Positions 9,659-34,204 of a stretch of 64,000 nucleotides of DNA are shown piece by piece; position 1 is the first letter of the stretch; every line of letters starts with the position of its first letter. The position numbers and the translations under genes are program-made. The notes below the pieces were generated by a model that saw only the letters and a program-made list of their open reading frames with translations, was not told the DNA's origin and searched no databases. The stretch comes from Sphingomicrobium sp. (lineage in GTDB: Bacteria > Pseudomonadota > Alphaproteobacteria > Sphingomonadales > Sphingomonadaceae): the NCBI GenBank assembly GCA_035576365.1, contig DATLWK010000008.1, positions 28,605-92,604 of the forward strand, in the 5' to 3' direction.

Positions 9659-9729
9659 CCTGACAGCGTGCCCCAGAACACTGCCGCAGGGGGAGCGGCT
9701 TGGTTCTGCTCAAGAAGCGGGGACTCTCA

Positions 9730-10029
9730 ATGATCCGTTCGGAACTCGTCCAGAAGCTGTGCGATGACTTTCCCGATCTCACCCAGCGGGAGATCGAGGG
9801 CGTCGTGACTGCAATTTTCCACTCGATCACTGATCAGCTGGCGAATGGCGGCAGGGTTGAGCTGCGCGGCTTTGGCGCCTTCTCGACGCGGCAACGCGAT
9901 GCCCGGATCGGCCGCAACCCCCGCACCGGCGAATCCGTATCGGTGGACGCCAAGCGCGTGCCCTATTTCAAGCCCGGCAAGGAGATGCGGGAGCGGCTGA
10001 ACCTGAACGGGACGGCCGAGGCGTTATAA
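9730..10029 (+). CDS. ihfB: integration host factor beta subunit
   Basis: [42 protein letters not shown]; follows rpsA. Confidence 0.96.
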
Positions 10030-30473: not shown

Positions 30474-31189
30474 CGCGTCCCTTCGGCTGCGCGCTTCTCG
30501 CGAGCCTCTTCTAACACCTCATTATAGGAACGCGAACGGTCGAGATAAGAGGGGGCCTCCCCTCCCTCTTCCCCGGAAAAGCGGGCGACGACCCGCACGT
30601 CATCGAAGCCGGCCGCTAGAAGCGGAAGCGCGAAGCTGCGCTCGACCGCGCGTCGCGCCGCATCGCGGGCGAGGCGCATCGGCACTTCGGCCTGGGCCTG
30701 CTTGCGCAGATCCTCGACCGCGGCGGCGCGATTGGAGCGATCGAGCACCGCCTCCGCATCGGTCAGCGCGGCAAGAATCCCGCCGGACCCATATTCGCGC
30801 GCAGACGAAAGATCGACCTCGGGCCCGGCGATTTCGATGTCGGGAAGGCGCACGCTGAGCGTCTTCGACCGCGCGTCCCAGCGGACGTCGTCCTCGCTCA
30901 TTTTCGACAGGTCCAGTTCGTAACGGACATCCCCGGGAAGGATCAAAGTGCGCTCGGTCGAAAGGCCGAGTCTGGTATGCCGAGCGGTCGTCACCGACAC
31001 GTAGCGGGCGACGAACGGCACCAGCCGGTTCTGGGCTCGCATGGATTCGAGGCTGGAAGTCGCGATGGCGCGCGGATTGGACGTGCCGAACAGCCGGTCG
31101 GCAATGCCGGCGCCGCCGATGAGCAAGCCGATCACCAACGCGACGACGATCGCGCCGATCAGCAGCGGTAGTTTCAGGCGGCTTTCCAT
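30470..31189 (-). CDS. DUF4230-like membrane-anchored protein
   Basis: N-terminal TM helix; LILPGDVRYELDLS, VRLP..EI..P. Confidence 0.75.
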   Translation of the reverse strand: MESRLKLPLLIGAIVVALVIGLLIGGAGIADRLFGTSNPRAIATSSLESMRAQNRLVPFVARYVSVTTARHTRLGLSTERTLILPGDVRYELDLSKMSEDDVRWDARSKTLSVRLPDIEIAGPEVDLSSAREYGSGGILAALTDAEAVLDRSNRAAAVEDLRKQAQAEVPMRLARDAARRAVERSFALPLLAAGFDDVRVVARFSGEEGGEAPSYLDRSRSYNEVLEEAREKRAAEGTR

Positions 31190-32025
31190 ACACCTCCAGC
31201 GTCGACAACGAGTCCGCGCTTTTCGAGGTCCAGCAAGTGGGCGAGCACCGAGCCGCCGGCGGCGGCGGTGAGACGCGGGTCGAGTCCGGGATAGGCATTG
31301 GCGACGATGTCGGGAATCTCCCGCGGCTGCTCGCCGACCAGCCGCAATATCTGCTTTTCGCGCTGCATCCGGTGCCCGATCAGCGAGCGCACATATTGCT
31401 GGGGCTTGGTGACCGGCGGGCCATGCGCCGGATAATAGATGCGGTCCTGCCGCTGCCTCAGCTTGTCGAGGCTCGCCATGTAGGCGGCCATGTCGCCGTC
31501 CGGCGGGACGACGACGGTGGTCGACCAGCCCATGACATGGTCTCCGGTGAACAAGACGCCGGACGCTTCATCGGCAAAGCACAGATGGTTGGACGTGTGG
31601 CCGGGGGTAGCCACGGCTACCAGCTGCCGGCCGTCGACCTCGATCGCGTCGTTTTCGGCTAGAACCCGGTCCGGCGCATAGTCGCCGTCGAAGGCGGCGT
31701 CGGCCCGCGGTCCCAGCGTTTCGAGCGCCAGCGGCGCGCAACCTACCACCGGCGCCCCCGTGGCTTGCGCCAGCGGCCTTGCCCCCGGGCTGTGGTCGCG
31801 GTGGGTGTGGGTGCAAAGAATGGCGACTACGGAACGGCCGCCAATTGCGCGGATCAGGGCTTCGACATGCGCCTTGTCGGCAGGTCCGGGGTCGATCACC
31901 GCGACCTCCCGATCGCCGACCAGGTATGTTTGCGTGCCGGTGAAGGTGAAAGCCGACGGATTTTCCGCGAGAACCCGGCCGATCCCGTGCTCCAGCGTCT
32001 CTAATGATGCGTAAGGGGCGTCCAC
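31174..32025 (-). CDS. MBL-fold metallo-hydrolase (LACTB2-like) with winged-helix C-terminus
   Basis: NPSAFTFTGTQTY, THTHRDHS, TPGHTSNH, TGDHVMG, YPAHG. Confidence 0.92.
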   Translation of the reverse strand: MDAPYASLETLEHGIGRVLAENPSAFTFTGTQTYLVGDREVAVIDPGPADKAHVEALIRAIGGRSVVAILCTHTHRDHSPGARPLAQATGAPVVGCAPLALETLGPRADAAFDGDYAPDRVLAENDAIEVDGRQLVAVATPGHTSNHLCFADEASGVLFTGDHVMGWSTTVVVPPDGDMAAYMASLDKLRQRQDRIYYPAHGPPVTKPQQYVRSLIGHRMQREKQILRLVGEQPREIPDIVANAYPGLDPRLTAAAGGSVLAHLLDLEKRGLVVDAGGVWKAA

Positions 32026-32088: not shown

Positions 32089-33387
32089 TCAGCTCGCCAT
32101 CCGGCGACTTCGAGCCGCGCGCAGCCTCGCCAGCGCATGCTGCGCCAGAACCGCCAGGCCGGGCTCCTGGGCACCGAGCTGCAGCGCCCGGCGATCGAAT
32201 GCCTGTGGGTAGATCCGGCCGAACAGCGCCTCCATGCTGCGGTCCCAGCTGAACTGGCGGGCGTGAAGGTACGCATTCTCGCCCATGAACTTCCGGTCGC
32301 CCTCCCAAAGCTCGACAATGTTGCGCGCCATCGCTTCGGCATCGTCGACCGGTCCGAGCCTTCCCAGATCCTCGGTGACGCGATCGATCATCGCTCCTGC
32401 GGCAACACCGACCACCGGCAGGCCCGACGCCTGAGCTTCGACGATCGAAACGCCGAACGTCTCGTCCGCCATTCCGGAAACATAGAGGTCGGCACTGGCC
32501 AGCCAGCGCGCCAGCTCGGCCCGGTCGCGGACGTAGCCGGGCGCGAAGATGCGCGGATCGTCGAGCTGTGCGATTTCCTCGCGCAGCGGCCCTTCGCCAA
32601 GCAGGACCAGCTTGGCGCCAAGCTCCTCCGGCAATTTCGCGAACGCCTCGACCACCAGCTGCGCCTTCTTCTCCGCATCGAGGCGCCCGACATAGATCAG
32701 CAGCGGGTGGTCGTCGTCGAGGCCAAGCGATTGGCGCAGGCTCGGGTCGCGGAGCGACGGGCCGAAGCTGCCGAGCTCGACGCCGAGACCGACGGTGTCG
32801 ACCCGGTCGACGCCATAGGAACGCAACTTGGTCGCGCCGCCATTCTCGCTGACGGCAAAGACGGCATCGAACCGACGATAGAGCGACCCGCAATAGCGGT
32901 AGCAGAGTTTGCCCGCCGCGGCGGCGAGGCCCCGGCCCAACACCTTCGAAAAGGGCCGCTCGACGTAAACCGTCGGGAAATCGGTCATATATGCGGCGAC
33001 CAGCGCCGTCGCCGGATGGCGCTTGCGATGCGCAATCGCCGCCCACGGCAGATTATAGCTGTCCTGGCATTCAATGAGATCCGGCTGAAACTGCTCGAGA
33101 GCCTCGCAGACGGCATTGTTGCGCAGCATCAGCCGGTAATTGGGACTGCCCGGAACACGAGGCGAGCGGATGGTGACAGTCACCGCCCGCTCTCCCTCGA
33201 CCACCGAATCTTCGGCTCCGGGAACGATCAGCAAATGGCGGTGCGGGGTTCGCTCGATGATGTGCTTGCGCTTGTGGCGAAGATAGGTCCCGACCCCCCC
33301 GCCGACCTCGGACCAGCTCTGAGTCAGGTCGCAGAGGAGCAGAGGGCGATCGAGCGAACTTGGCGCCTTTGGTACGGAAAGTGTCAT
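32089..33387 (-). CDS. GT4 family glycosyltransferase
   Basis: GGGVGTYL, YVGRLDAEK, ETFGVSIVEAQASGLPVV. Confidence 0.92.
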   Translation of the reverse strand: MTLSVPKAPSSLDRPLLLCDLTQSWSEVGGGVGTYLRHKRKHIIERTPHRHLLIVPGAEDSVVEGERAVTVTIRSPRVPGSPNYRLMLRNNAVCEALEQFQPDLIECQDSYNLPWAAIAHRKRHPATALVAAYMTDFPTVYVERPFSKVLGRGLAAAAGKLCYRYCGSLYRRFDAVFAVSENGGATKLRSYGVDRVDTVGLGVELGSFGPSLRDPSLRQSLGLDDDHPLLIYVGRLDAEKKAQLVVEAFAKLPEELGAKLVLLGEGPLREEIAQLDDPRIFAPGYVRDRAELARWLASADLYVSGMADETFGVSIVEAQASGLPVVGVAAGAMIDRVTEDLGRLGPVDDAEAMARNIVELWEGDRKFMGENAYLHARQFSWDRSMEALFGRIYPQAFDRRALQLGAQEPGLAVLAQHALARLRAARSRRMAS

Positions 33388-33531
33388 TGCGCTGCCAAAC
33401 CCCGCAGCGACGGCAAAGTGCCATCAGCCGCGAACTGCCGGCTTGCAATGTGTCGGAAAACTTTACGCATCCGCCCGACGCCCTTGGCTGCCACTAAGAA
33501 AAAATACCGGAAAATAGCCGTTTTGGTCACT

Positions 33532-33547
33532 TGGCACGCCGATTGCA
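33532..33547 (+). promoter_or_regulatory. sigma54 (-24/-12) promoter
   Basis: TGGCACGCCGATTGCA matches TGGCAC-N5-TTGCW exactly; A-tract-rich sequence upstream. Confidence 0.8.
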
Positions 33548-33555
33548 TCTGTATT

Positions 33556-33631
33556 GGCGTCCACTTGGTTCCACGCCAGTTAAAGGGACGGTCGCAAGCG
33601 GTTCTCTGGTCCCCTTGCACCGTCCCTTTTT
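33556..33631 (+). ncRNA. candidate sigma54-dependent small RNA
   Basis: Begins about 11 nt after the -12 GC; hairpin GGCGT..ACGCC, then AAAGGGACGGT-C-GCAAG-15 nt loop-CTTGC-ACCGTCCCTTT-TT; no sizeable plus-strand ORF before the converging grxD. Confidence 0.6.
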
Positions 33632-33644
33632 CGTTGCCGAACGG

Positions 33645-33962
33645 CTATTCGGCGCCCGCAGCGACCAGTTGCTGAAGCTCGCCCTTTTCGAACATCTCCA
33701 TCATGATGTCGGAACCGCCGACGAACTCGCCCTTGACGTAGAGCTGAGGGATGGTTGGCCAGTCGCTATATTCCTTGATCCCCTGGCGGATTTCCGGGTC
33801 CCGGAGCACGTCGACCGTCTCGTACGGTACGCCGAGGTGATCGAGGATCGCCACCGCGCGGCCGGAAAAGCCGCACTGCGGGAACAGGGTCGTGCCCTTC
33901 ATGAACAGGACGACGTCGCTGTTCTTCACGATCTCATCGATCCGGGTTTTGGCGTCGCTCAC
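33645..33962 (-). CDS. grxD: monothiol glutaredoxin (Grx4 family)
   Basis: [31 protein letters not shown]. Confidence 0.97.
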
Positions 33963-33973
33963 GTCACTTCTCC

Positions 33974-34204
33974 TCAGGCTGCAGCGGTCTCCAGCTGCAG
34001 CGCATGTAATTCGCCGCCCATCCTGCCGCCCAACGCACGATAGACCCGCTGGTGCTGCTGGATCCGGCTCAGTCCGGCGAAGCTCGGGCTGACGACCTTC
34101 GCCGAATAATGATCGCCGTCGCCGGCGAGGTCGGTGATCGCAATCTCGGCATCGGGAATCGCCTCGCGGATCAGCCGTTCAATTTCGTCCGCCGCCATCG
34201 GCAT
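33974..34204 (-). CDS. bolA: BolA/IbaG family protein
   Basis: [29 protein letters not shown]. Confidence 0.92.

What the first reader, a model, noticed from the sequence alone, without database searches (positions are those of the whole stretch)
33500..33640. Orphan sigma54 promoter driving a probable unannotated small RNA
Seen: an exact sigma54 consensus, TGGCACGCCGATTGCA (33532-33547), faces the 3' end of the converging grxD, with no ORF to express. About 11 nt after the -12 GC comes a 5' hairpin (GGCGT-12 nt-ACGCC), then an 11 bp plus 5 bp stem with a 15-nt pyrimidine-rich loop and a U-tract, about 75 nt in all. An A-tract segment (33495-33525) lies just upstream. Known: sigma54 promoters need an enhancer-binding activator and often IHF bending, and sigma54 sRNAs exist elsewhere (Vibrio Qrr). 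Inference: a stand-alone sRNA of an RpoN regulon (nitrogen, motility or pili). I do not recognise it as a described family.
Basis: partly seen in the sequence, partly recalled or inferred. Interest (0 to 1): 0.8.

Follow-up and report, generated by a model that had tools for sequence, protein, structure and literature searches.

The report
PrsR/sigma-54-driven small RNA gene
The "orphan" sigma-54 promoter belongs to a conserved, undescribed ~75-nt small RNA gene found in every good genome of the genus and, in diverged form, across the family Sphingomonadaceae; its upstream activator site matches the "PEP-CTERM box" predicted to bind the response regulator PrsR, in a genome that has lost the proteins PrsR normally controls.

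Summary
TGGCACGCCGATTGCA (33532-33547, +) is the only such motif in the window. A ~75-nt hairpin-rich stretch ending in a U-tract follows it, with no ORF. It matches no Rfam family.

All 153 distinct Sphingomicrobium (GTDB) loci keep the -24/-12 promoter. Conservation resumes at the predicted start site, and the terminator stem shows many compensatory changes.

All 153 loci also carry TGTCGG-N5-(T/C)T(T/G)AC 79-81 nt upstream of TGGCAC. Sequence and spacing match the published PEP-CTERM box, the predicted binding site of the sigma-54 activator PrsR. The same pattern in other Alphaproteobacteria sits in front of PEP-CTERM protein genes.

This genome has RpoN, PrsK and PrsR, but no exosortase and no PEP-CTERM proteins. 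The box occurs only here.

About half of 29 other Sphingomonadaceae genera have a sigma-54 promoter at the same place, facing the grxD 3' end. The RNA body differs there but repeats a UGGUCUYC motif.

The regulon is PrsK/PrsR, not nitrogen, motility or pili.

The parts
33451..33467 (+). Upstream activator site TGTCGGAAAACTTTACG, a PEP-CTERM box and the predicted PrsR binding site. The GTCGG starts 80 nt before TGGCAC, leaving a 63-nt gap to TTGGCAC.
   Evidence: It is the only match in the genome. A box is present at 79-81 nt in 153 of 153 genus loci: 125 strict and 28 with CTTAC/CTGAC. It fits the published 17-nt motif 1 ending in TTTACA, with a spacer of 62.8 +/- 10.6 nt. The same pattern precedes PEP-CTERM genes in other Alphaproteobacteria.
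33495..33527 (+). Conserved A/T-rich block (AAnTnGCnGAAnTCnGCCnTTT) between the activator site and the promoter; a possible IHF or DNA-bending site.
   Evidence: Column conservation over 153 loci. It resembles WATCARNNNNTTR, but the strict consensus is met in only 1 of 153 loci. IHF alpha- and beta-like genes are present. Binding is inferred.
33531..33547 (+). Sigma-54 promoter TTGGCACGCCGATTGCA, with the -24 GG at 33533-34 and the -12 GC at 33545-46.
   Evidence: GG-N10-GC is invariant in 153 of 153 loci. The information profile peaks over this stretch.
33557..33635 (+). Predicted small RNA of about 75-79 nt. The start is predicted at about 33557-33559, 12 nt after the -12 C. The 3' end lies in the U-tract at 33627-33635.
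   Evidence: Sequence conservation resumes at the predicted +1, after 9 variable A/T-rich nucleotides. The covariance model hits every genus genome that is at least 90% complete. No Rfam family matches. No ORF is present. Transcription has not been observed.
33559..33564 (+). Invariant 5' single-stranded GUCCAC.
   Evidence: Invariant columns in alignments A1 and A2.
33565..33579 (+). Hairpin 1: UUGGU, loop UCCAC, GCCAG.
   Evidence: A stem of 3-6 bp is kept in 21 arm variants. The 3' arm changes while the 5' arm stays fixed, for example CUGGUU/AACCAG and UUUGGU/GCCAAA.
33582..33629 (+). Hairpin 2, the terminator: an 11-bp outer stem, an inner stem, and the conserved loop GG-UUCUCUGGU-CC (33599-33613).
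   Evidence: 95.4% of cells are paired. 11 of 15 pairs show changes on both sides. 0 of 500 shuffles reach the observed values, and slid controls are far lower. Loop letters CUGGUCC are invariant.
33645..33962 (-). grxD (monothiol glutaredoxin), the convergent neighbour. Its stop codon lies 15 nt from hairpin 2, which may also terminate grxD transcription.
   Evidence: The synteny of sRNA locus, grxD and bolA is kept in other Sphingomonadaceae genera.

Best explanation
This is a stand-alone gene for a non-coding RNA of about 75 nt, transcribed by sigma-54 RNA polymerase.

The proposed mechanism is as follows. The histidine kinase PrsK phosphorylates the enhancer-binding response regulator PrsR. 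PrsR binds the PEP-CTERM box TGTCGGAAAACTTTACG (33451-33467), centred about 100 nt upstream of the start. The conserved A/T-rich block, probably bent by IHF, loops PrsR onto the closed complex at TTGGCAC-N5-TTGCA. Transcription then starts near 33558 and stops at the hairpin and U-tract at 33582-33635.

The RNA displays three invariant pyrimidine-rich elements: a 5' GUCCAC, UCCAC in the loop of hairpin 1, and UUCUCUGGUCC in the loop of hairpin 2. It most likely acts in trans, with Hfq, as a base-pairing regulator whose UCC/CUCC-type motifs pair with purine-rich ribosome-binding regions of envelope- or exopolysaccharide-related mRNAs.

In this genus the exosortase and PEP-CTERM protein genes are mostly gone, so the sRNA appears to be the only remaining output of PrsK/PrsR.

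Shown here: the anatomy, its conservation and covariation, the identity of the box with the one in front of PEP-CTERM genes, and the gene inventory. Inferred: transcription, PrsR binding, IHF involvement, Hfq dependence and the targets.
For: Promoter and RNA:
- The motif is unique in the window.
- The promoter is invariant in 153 of 153 distinct loci, and conservation restarts at the predicted +1.
- The covariance model finds the RNA in every genus genome that is at least 90% complete. It is missed only in two MAGs that are 74% and 60% complete.
- The terminator stem shows compensatory changes in 11 of 15 pairs, and no shuffle reaches the observed values.
- The loop and the 5' sequence are invariant, which a plain terminator does not need.

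Activator:
- G000 encodes RpoN and four enhancer-binding proteins. PrsR scores 670 bits against a cut-off of 503 and follows a PrsK-like kinase gene.
- Haft et al. 2006 (PMC1569441) describe a 17-nt motif ending in TTTACA, a spacer of 62.8 +/- 10.6 nt, then a sigma-54 site, and assign it to PrsR. Here the motif ends in TTTACG (TTTACA in several relatives) and the spacer is about 63 nt.
- The pattern GTCGG-N5-TTTAC-N54-72-TGGCAC-N6-TGC gives 27 hits in 401 alphaproteobacterial genomes, against 2 for the reversed control. At least 12 of the 25 non-self hits precede ORFs ending in PEP-CTERM tails.
- PrsR is present in 32 of 33 genus genomes, in 11 of 15 pattern-positive outgroups, and in 7 of 30 pattern-negative outgroups.
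- The box is unique in G000.
- The psp promoters, which PspF would serve, carry a different palindrome. NtrX lacks GAFTGA.
- A D. vulgaris PrsR-type regulator bound its predicted PEP-CTERM targets in vitro (PMC3333781).

Loss of the usual regulon: no exosortase in G000 or in 27 of 30 genus genomes, and no PEP-CTERM tails in G000.

Family-wide locus: 14 of 29 other genera have TGGCAC-N6-TGC facing the grxD 3' end, and 10 of these have the box at 78-81 nt. Hfq is present; CsrA and ProQ were not found.
Against:
- PrsR binding to this motif class rests on comparative genomics plus one in vitro study in a distant species.
- The last box position is G here, rather than the published A.
- No convincing mRNA target was found. 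Duplex scans are swamped by GC-rich noise. Short complements near starts are few and unremarkable. No extended antisense site exceeds the shuffled-pattern controls.
- U-tracts are weak in many relatives (CCCTTCCTC...).
- The strict IHF consensus is met in only 1 of 153 loci.
- Four pattern-positive outgroup genomes gave no PrsR hit at the strict E-value threshold used (1e-120), and 7 pattern-negative ones have it.
Confidence: 0.7

Rival explanations
1. The sRNA gene is real and sigma-54-dependent, but another enhancer-binding protein activates it: PspF, or the widespread receiver-domain activator carrying GAFPGA. PrsR is not involved.
For: Both proteins are encoded in G000. The GAFPGA activator is conserved across most of the family, and its binding site is unknown. 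All the upstream sites share an A/T core of AAA(A)TTT.
Against: The box matches, in sequence and spacing, the motif found in front of PEP-CTERM genes. The psp-type promoters carry a different palindrome, TGG-N2-AAATTT-N2-CCA. The GAFPGA activator has a changed GAFTGA loop, and another sigma-54 promoter (C11:49613, a GGTAAA-N7-TTTACC palindrome) is free to be its target. PrsR would otherwise have no target in a genome without PEP-CTERM genes.
Confidence: 0.13
2. The RNA does not act mainly by base pairing. It acts as a decoy that titrates an RNA-binding protein through repeated UGGUCUYC modules, working like RsmZ or CrcZ.
For: Orthologous loci in other genera carry 2-4 copies of UGGUCUUCGA or CUGGUCUCC in single-stranded stretches and in a hairpin loop, with the copy number varying. 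L228 has three tandem units plus the loop copy. About 30 nt are invariant across more than 150 species, yet no complementary target stands out.
Against: No candidate protein is known. CsrA and ProQ were not found. Repeated anti-Shine-Dalgarno seeds are also typical of base-pairing alphaproteobacterial sRNAs (own knowledge: the alpha-r14, NfeR1 and AbcR type). The complement of CUGGUCUCC contains GGAG.
Confidence: 0.25
3. The RNA acts in cis on its convergent neighbour. Its terminator hairpin overlaps the grxD-bolA 3' end, so transcription or pairing modulates termination or stability of the grxD-bolA mRNA.
For: The grxD stop lies 15 nt from the shared hairpin. The position next to grxD-bolA is kept across the family.
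Against: In many genera the sRNA has its own terminator and lies 60 to more than 300 nt from grxD. In four genus loci and one extra copy the upstream neighbour differs, and the promoter moves together with the RNA. The invariant 5' and loop motifs are not explained by 3' overlap.
Confidence: 0.08
4. There is no RNA gene. The hairpin is only the grxD terminator, and the sigma-54 motif is a chance or vestigial match.
For: The hairpin could terminate grxD (three U's follow it on the minus strand). No expression data are available.
Against: The motif is expected 0.03 times per window. It is invariant in 153 of 153 loci at a fixed distance from an invariant 20-nt block and from a fixed upstream box. 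The better U-tract is on the plus strand. The loop sequence is conserved. The unit occurs away from its usual neighbours.
Confidence: 0.03

Closest known systems
PEP-CTERM box / PrsK-PrsR-sigma-54 regulon (Haft et al. 2006, BMC Biol 4:29)
   Same: The upstream motif (GTCGG-N5-TTTAC[A/G]), the ~63-nt spacer to a -24/-12 promoter, and PrsK and PrsR encoded in the genome.
   Different: The transcribed product is a ~75-nt non-coding RNA, not a PEP-CTERM protein. The genome lacks exosortase and PEP-CTERM proteins. The last base of the box is usually G.
Qrr sRNAs of Vibrio (LuxO plus sigma-54)
   Same: A small Hfq-type RNA whose gene is the dedicated target of a phosphorylated NtrC-family response regulator acting with sigma-54. 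The RNA is short and ends in a Rho-independent terminator.
   Different: No sequence or structure similarity (no Rfam hit). One copy per genome as a rule. A different activator, box and phylum-level lineage. Targets are unknown.
GlmY (GlrK/GlrR plus sigma-54), CrcZ (CbrA/CbrB plus sigma-54), NrsZ (NtrC plus sigma-54), Dv_sRNA2 (DVU0679, PMC3333781)
   Same: A two-component system and sigma-54 driving a stand-alone sRNA. GlmY and CrcZ act by sequestering proteins, which is the rival mode proposed here.
   Different: Unrelated sequences, regulators and signals. None of them is linked to the PEP-CTERM system.
Alphaproteobacterial multi-seed anti-SD sRNAs (alpha-r14/CcsR/NfeR1, AbcR); own knowledge
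   Same: Short RNAs that show the same C/U-rich motif in several loops or single-stranded stretches.
   Different: Their motif is CCUCCUCCC and their promoters are sigma-70 or ECF type. No Rfam match here.
BjrC68 (RF02353, Bradyrhizobiaceae sRNA)
   Same: One orthologous locus (L228) gives a weak match over its hairpin and terminator (24.8 bits).
   Different: The score is below the gathering score of 39 bits. It occurs in 1 of 15 loci and not in the window. The alignment is mostly terminator. It is not a member.

Membership tests
Sigma-54 (RpoN) dependent promoter | GG at -24 and GC at -12, ten bases apart (TGGCAC-N5-TTGCW) | tested here: met
   Exact consensus at 33532-33547; invariant in 153 of 153 loci.
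Sigma-54 (RpoN) dependent promoter | rpoN and at least one GAFTGA-bearing enhancer-binding protein in the genome | tested here: met
   RpoN at C15. PrsR and PspF carry GAFTGA-type and GSFTGA-type loops respectively.
Sigma-54 (RpoN) dependent promoter | Upstream activator site about 80-150 nt from the start | tested here: met
   A conserved box centred about 100 nt upstream of the predicted start.
Sigma-54 (RpoN) dependent promoter | Transcription abolished without RpoN or the activator | not testable with these tools
   Needs mutants.
PEP-CTERM box regulon (PrsR targets) | 17-nt motif 1 ending in TTTACA | tested here: met
   TGTCGGAAAACTTTACG here; TTTACA in several relatives. The GTCGG-N5-TTTAC core, taken from this locus and used as the search pattern, was then found in front of ORFs with PEP-CTERM tails. 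The motif is described. The published logo itself could not be viewed.
PEP-CTERM box regulon (PrsR targets) | Spacer of about 63 nt (62.8 +/- 10.6) to a sigma-54 site | tested here: met
   Box start to TGGCAC is 80 nt (79-81 in all loci), which gives a ~63-nt spacer.
PEP-CTERM box regulon (PrsR targets) | PrsK and PrsR present in the genome | tested here: met
   TIGR02915 scores 670 bits against a cut-off of 503. A 686-aa membrane histidine kinase gene lies immediately upstream and was read as PrsK by eye; it was not scored against TIGR02916. PrsR is in 32 of 33 genus genomes.
PEP-CTERM box regulon (PrsR targets) | The downstream gene encodes a PEP-CTERM protein, and an exosortase is present | tested here: not met
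   No ORF follows the promoter. There is no exosortase and no PEP-CTERM tail in G000. It works like a PrsR target but is not a PEP-CTERM gene.
PEP-CTERM box regulon (PrsR targets) | PrsR binds the box | not testable with these tools
   Needs EMSA, footprinting or ChIP.
Any Rfam 15 family (including Qrr, GlmY/GlmZ, CrcZ, SuhB, alpha-r families) | Covariance-model score at or above the gathering score | tested here: not met
   In the window, only two microRNA models matched, at E 0.5-1.7. In the orthologous loci the only hit was BjrC68 at 24.8 bits, below its 39-bit gathering score, in 1 of 15 loci.
Rho-independent terminator | GC-rich hairpin followed by a U-tract on the transcribed strand | tested here: met
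   An 11+5 bp stem followed by UUUUUCGUU, with covariation. The scanner missed it because of the 15-nt loop. U-tracts are weaker in some relatives.
Hfq-dependent trans-acting base-pairing sRNA | Hfq present; 3' hairpin and U-tail; an accessible conserved seed; identified mRNA targets | tested here: inconclusive
   Hfq is present and the seeds and terminator are present. No target was identified.

The most novel reading that the evidence does not exclude
In Sphingomonadaceae the conserved, and in Sphingomicrobium the only, output of the PrsK/PrsR-sigma-54 system is a previously unrecognised sRNA family. It is encoded next to grxD-bolA and built from repeated UGGUCUYC modules. PrsK/PrsR would then be a post-transcriptional control circuit for the cell envelope or biofilm, one that survives loss of the exosortase/PEP-CTERM machinery and does not serve only as a switch for PEP-CTERM protein genes. 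The RNA may work as a multi-site decoy for a still unknown RNA-binding protein.
Probability: 0.35. Interest if true: 0.75.

Novelty: new member of a known kind. Interest (0 to 1): 0.66.

Why it matters
PrsK/PrsR has been known since 2006 only as the predicted switch for PEP-CTERM protein genes in exopolysaccharide and floc-forming bacteria. Its signal and the full extent of its regulon are unknown.

A dedicated sRNA under a PEP-CTERM box would add a post-transcriptional arm to that system. It would also explain why small-genome sphingomonads keep PrsK/PrsR after losing the exosortase.

The finding gives a simple read-out, one promoter and one RNA, for studying the PrsK signal. It also adds a well-delimited RNA family (more than 150 species, with covariation) to a bacterial family in which a 2025 preprint on Sphingopyxis granuli TFA calls SuhB the only sRNA characterised in that strain. 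It is another example of the recurring design in which a two-component system and sigma-54 drive an sRNA.

Tried and rejected
- Rfam scan of the region at E up to 10: only two microRNA models by chance. Scan of 15 orthologous loci: only a sub-threshold BjrC68 match in one. Rejected as membership.
- The simple promoter and terminator scanner found nothing: its loop limit is too small and it does not cover sigma-54.
- Earlier findings of this scan: nothing on this locus or on similar sequence.
- Adjacency of the sRNA to an activator gene: only one case, a second copy convergent with prsR in one MAG. Too thin to use as evidence.
- Phylogenetic profile of the GAFPGA activator: present in most genera of the family, so uninformative.
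- Target prediction: duplex folding against about 35,000 candidate start windows is dominated by GC-rich noise. 7-8-mer complements near ORF starts give a few unremarkable hits, for example GGGACCAG just before the dnaN ATG. Extended complements with up to 3 mismatches are no more frequent than for shuffled patterns. No target is claimed.
- NifA-type UAS (TGT-N10-ACA), NtrC and TyrR-type boxes were considered by eye and do not fit.
- A divergent sigma-54 promoter for the GT4 gene (TGGCACTTTG on the minus strand, 33414-33423) was rejected: it has no proper -12 element and lies only about 30 nt from the box.
- The GT4 gene as a conserved partner was rejected: it is absent from the orthologous loci of other genera, where an MBL-fold hydrolase is the neighbour.
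- Small peptide coding was rejected: there is no start codon or ORF, and indels in the linker are not multiples of three.
- SuhB of Sphingopyxis was rejected: it is LysR-controlled and there is no model match.

Full report
**1. What is in the sequence**

The stretch 33451-33635 on the plus strand lies between a glycosyltransferase family 4 gene (32089-33387, minus strand) and the convergent grxD (33645-33962, minus) and bolA (33974-34204, minus).

It is the only match to TGGCAC-N5-TTGCW in the window, where 0.03 are expected. It is one of four strict matches in the 2.29-Mb genome.

No plus-strand ORF follows. The next 80 nt fold to -37 kcal/mol (z = -5.6). The reported 11+5-bp hairpin, its 15-nt loop CGGUUCUCUGGUCCC and the tail UUUUUCGUU are all present. 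Rfam 15 has nothing for this region.

**2. Conservation shows a gene, not a chance motif**

BLASTN found the element in 32 of 36 genomes of the same genus and in none of 24 genomes from other families of the order. A covariance model built from the RNA part alone then found it in three further searches:
- 16 of 16 same-genus genomes, the query genome among them, in an order-wide scan;
- two of the four genomes that BLASTN had missed;

The only genus genomes left without a convincing hit are MAGs that are 74% and 60% complete.

Contig titles identify the genus as GTDB Sphingomicrobium. It includes 'Sphingomonas' rhizophila, daechungensis, arenae, hankyongi and cremea, as well as Sphingomicrobium lutaoense.

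Across 153 distinct loci:
- the promoter TTGGCACG-N4-TTGC is invariant;
- the next 9 nt are variable and A/T-rich;
- conservation restarts at the position expected for +1, with (G/C)GUCCAC-UUGGUUCCAC.

Hairpin 2 is 95% paired. 11 of its 15 pairs change on both sides, for example G-C to A-U in 41 of 92 sequences. None of 500 shuffles, and no slid register, comes close.

The loop letters CUGGUCC and the closing GG/CC are invariant. A plain terminator does not need that.

The conserved small stem is UUGGU/GCCAA, with UCCAC in the loop, and its 3' arm changes to preserve or lengthen the pairing.

In four loci the upstream neighbour differs, and one MAG has a second copy elsewhere. In each case the promoter travels with the RNA.

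**3. The activator site**

A second invariant block lies upstream: TGTCGG-N5-(T/C)T(T/G)AC-(G/A). Its GTCGG starts 79-81 nt before TGGCAC in 153 of 153 loci, and exactly 80 nt in 114 of the 125 loci with the strict box. Here it is TGTCGGAAAACTTTACG, 33451-33467, and it is the only such site in the genome.

Between it and the promoter lies a conserved A/T-rich block that loosely resembles an IHF site. IHF alpha- and beta-like genes exist, but the strict consensus is rarely met.

The genome encodes RpoN and four enhancer-binding proteins:
- PrsR (TIGR02915, 670 bits against a cut-off of 503). It is preceded by a 686-aa membrane histidine kinase gene, read as PrsK by eye.
- PspF, divergent from pspABC.
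- NtrX, which lacks GAFTGA.
- A receiver-domain activator with GAFPGA, which is common in the family.

There is no NtrC and no flagellar activator.

Haft et al. 2006 reported that proteobacterial PEP-CTERM genes are preceded by a 17-nt motif ending in TTTACA, a spacer of 62.8 +/- 10.6 nt, and a sigma-54 site. Phylogenetic profiling assigned that motif to PrsR. The present box ends in TTTACG (TTTACA in several relatives), and the spacer is about 63 nt.

I tested this link directly. The pattern GTCGG-N5-TTTAC-N54-72-TGGCAC-N6-TGC gave 27 hits in 401 alphaproteobacterial genomes, against 2 for the reversed control. The hits lie in 16 genomes, the query genome among them, and several genomes have 2-4 copies. 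At least 12 of the 25 non-self hits lie just upstream of ORFs ending in canonical PEP-CTERM tails (VPEP...hydrophobic...RRR).

PrsR is present in 11 of 15 pattern-positive outgroup genomes and in 7 of 30 pattern-negative ones. 14 of the 15 positives gave an exosortase hit at E <= 1e-5, 12 of them above the family's cut-off.

The psp-type promoters of this genome carry a different palindrome, TGG-N2-AAA(A)TTT-N2-CCA. A fourth promoter has GGTAAA-N7-TTTACC. Each activator therefore has plausible sites of its own.

A PrsR-type regulator of D. vulgaris bound its predicted PEP-CTERM targets in vitro. The same study found another sigma-54 regulator whose target is an sRNA (PMC3333781).

**4. A PrsK/PrsR system without its usual regulon**

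G000 has no exosortase and no ORF with a PEP-CTERM tail. 27 of 30 genus genomes lack exosortase, while 32 of 33 keep PrsR. The neighbouring genus g51 also has PrsR, no exosortase, and a diverged sRNA with the box (L057). In these genomes the sRNA promoter is the only recognisable PrsR site.

**5. The locus is family-wide**

I fetched the grxD loci of 29 other Sphingomonadaceae genera. 14 have TGGCAC-N6-TGC facing the grxD 3' end, and 10 of these have GTCGG-N5-TTTAC 78-81 nt upstream. An independent hit of the box pattern (L201, genus g26) lies at the same place.

bolA-grxD on one side, and in several genera an MBL-fold hydrolase on the other, are the conserved neighbours. The GT4 gene is specific to Sphingomicrobium.

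The RNA bodies diverge. One genus (L217) still aligns with the Sphingomicrobium form (E = 1e-5). Most others show one to three single-stranded UUGGUCUUCGA units, then a GC-rich hairpin GAGGCGG...CCGCCUC whose loop reads CUGGUCUCC, then CCCGAA and a separate terminator. None of them matches an Rfam family.

**6. How it probably works**

These steps are inferred, not shown:
1. PrsK senses an unknown envelope or surface signal.
2. PrsR~P binds the box.
3. Bent DNA brings PrsR to the sigma-54 closed complex.
4. A ~75-nt RNA is made.

Hfq is encoded (in an unusual tandem-domain form). CsrA and ProQ were not detected.

The repeated C/U-rich motifs (UCCAC, CUGGUCCC; CUGGUCUCC in other genera, whose complement contains GGAG) fit a multi-seed anti-Shine-Dalgarno regulator. 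I rate this at about 50%.

The variable copy number of one module, together with the lack of any outstanding complementary site, keeps a protein-decoy mechanism alive at about 25%. A cis role on grxD-bolA is less likely.

**7. Known or new**

Two-component-system and sigma-54 driven sRNAs are a known kind: Qrr, GlmY, CrcZ, NrsZ, Dv_sRNA2. This RNA matches none of them and no Rfam model.

I found no paper linking PrsR or the PEP-CTERM box to an sRNA. Of the Sphingomonadaceae sRNAs I checked, SuhB of Sphingopyxis is unrelated: it is LysR-controlled and gives no model match.

I file it as a new member of a known kind, with a new regulatory link.

**8. Limits**

There is no binding assay and no target. 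The published logo of motif 1 could not be viewed, so the match rests on the paper's text plus my own pattern test.

Noticed in passing
whole genome G000 (outside the window): C2:95442-96806, C7:136531-137586, C6:72254-73648, C13:156297-157730: There are only four sigma-54 activators (PrsR, PspF, NtrX and a GAFPGA receiver-domain activator). No NtrC was found, although NtrX is present.
   Followed up: partly
G000 C7 ~136350-136530; C13:223759 (-); C15:145194 (+); C11:49613 (+): The genome has other sigma-54 promoters. pspA (TGGCACGTCTCTTGTA) and two PspC-domain genes carry TGG-N2-AAA(A)TTT-N2-CCA palindromes upstream, likely PspF sites. A membrane-protein gene carries a GGTAAA-N7-TTTACC palindrome.
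   Followed up: partly
G000 C6:73668-74117 (just after ntrX): The Hfq gene appears to encode two tandem Hfq (Sm) domains. CsrA and ProQ were not detected by tblastn.
   Followed up: no
window 33414-33423 (minus strand reads TGGCACTTTG): A block conserved across the genus lies 30-40 nt upstream of the GT4 start. It resembles a -24 element but has no proper -12 element. Unexplained.
   Followed up: partly
L228 about 1270-1450 (another Sphingomonadaceae genus): The orthologous sRNA carries three tandem UGGUCUUCGAUAA units plus a fourth copy in the hairpin loop. It gives a weak sub-threshold match to Rfam BjrC68.
   Followed up: partly
L198, L207, L200 (other Alphaproteobacteria): Some PEP-CTERM-box and sigma-54 promoters are followed by about 190 nt and a terminator with no convincing ORF (L198, L207), or by a 32-aa membrane peptide ORF (L200). 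PrsR-type promoters may drive other non-coding or micro-protein transcripts.
   Followed up: no
L105:1602-1703 (+), with prsR at 2993-1866 (-); L083 in the same MAG: One Sphingomicrobium MAG has two copies of the sRNA, and one copy is convergent with prsR.
   Followed up: no
window about 9724-9999 (+) (G000 C8:38328-38603): An IHF beta-like gene lies in the same window. An IHF alpha-like gene is at C2:339835-340101.
   Followed up: no
window 32089-33387 (-): The GT4 glycosyltransferase next to the sRNA is specific to Sphingomicrobium at this locus. In other genera an MBL-fold hydrolase (window 31174-32025) is the direct neighbour, so the GT4 gene looks like an insertion.
   Followed up: partly
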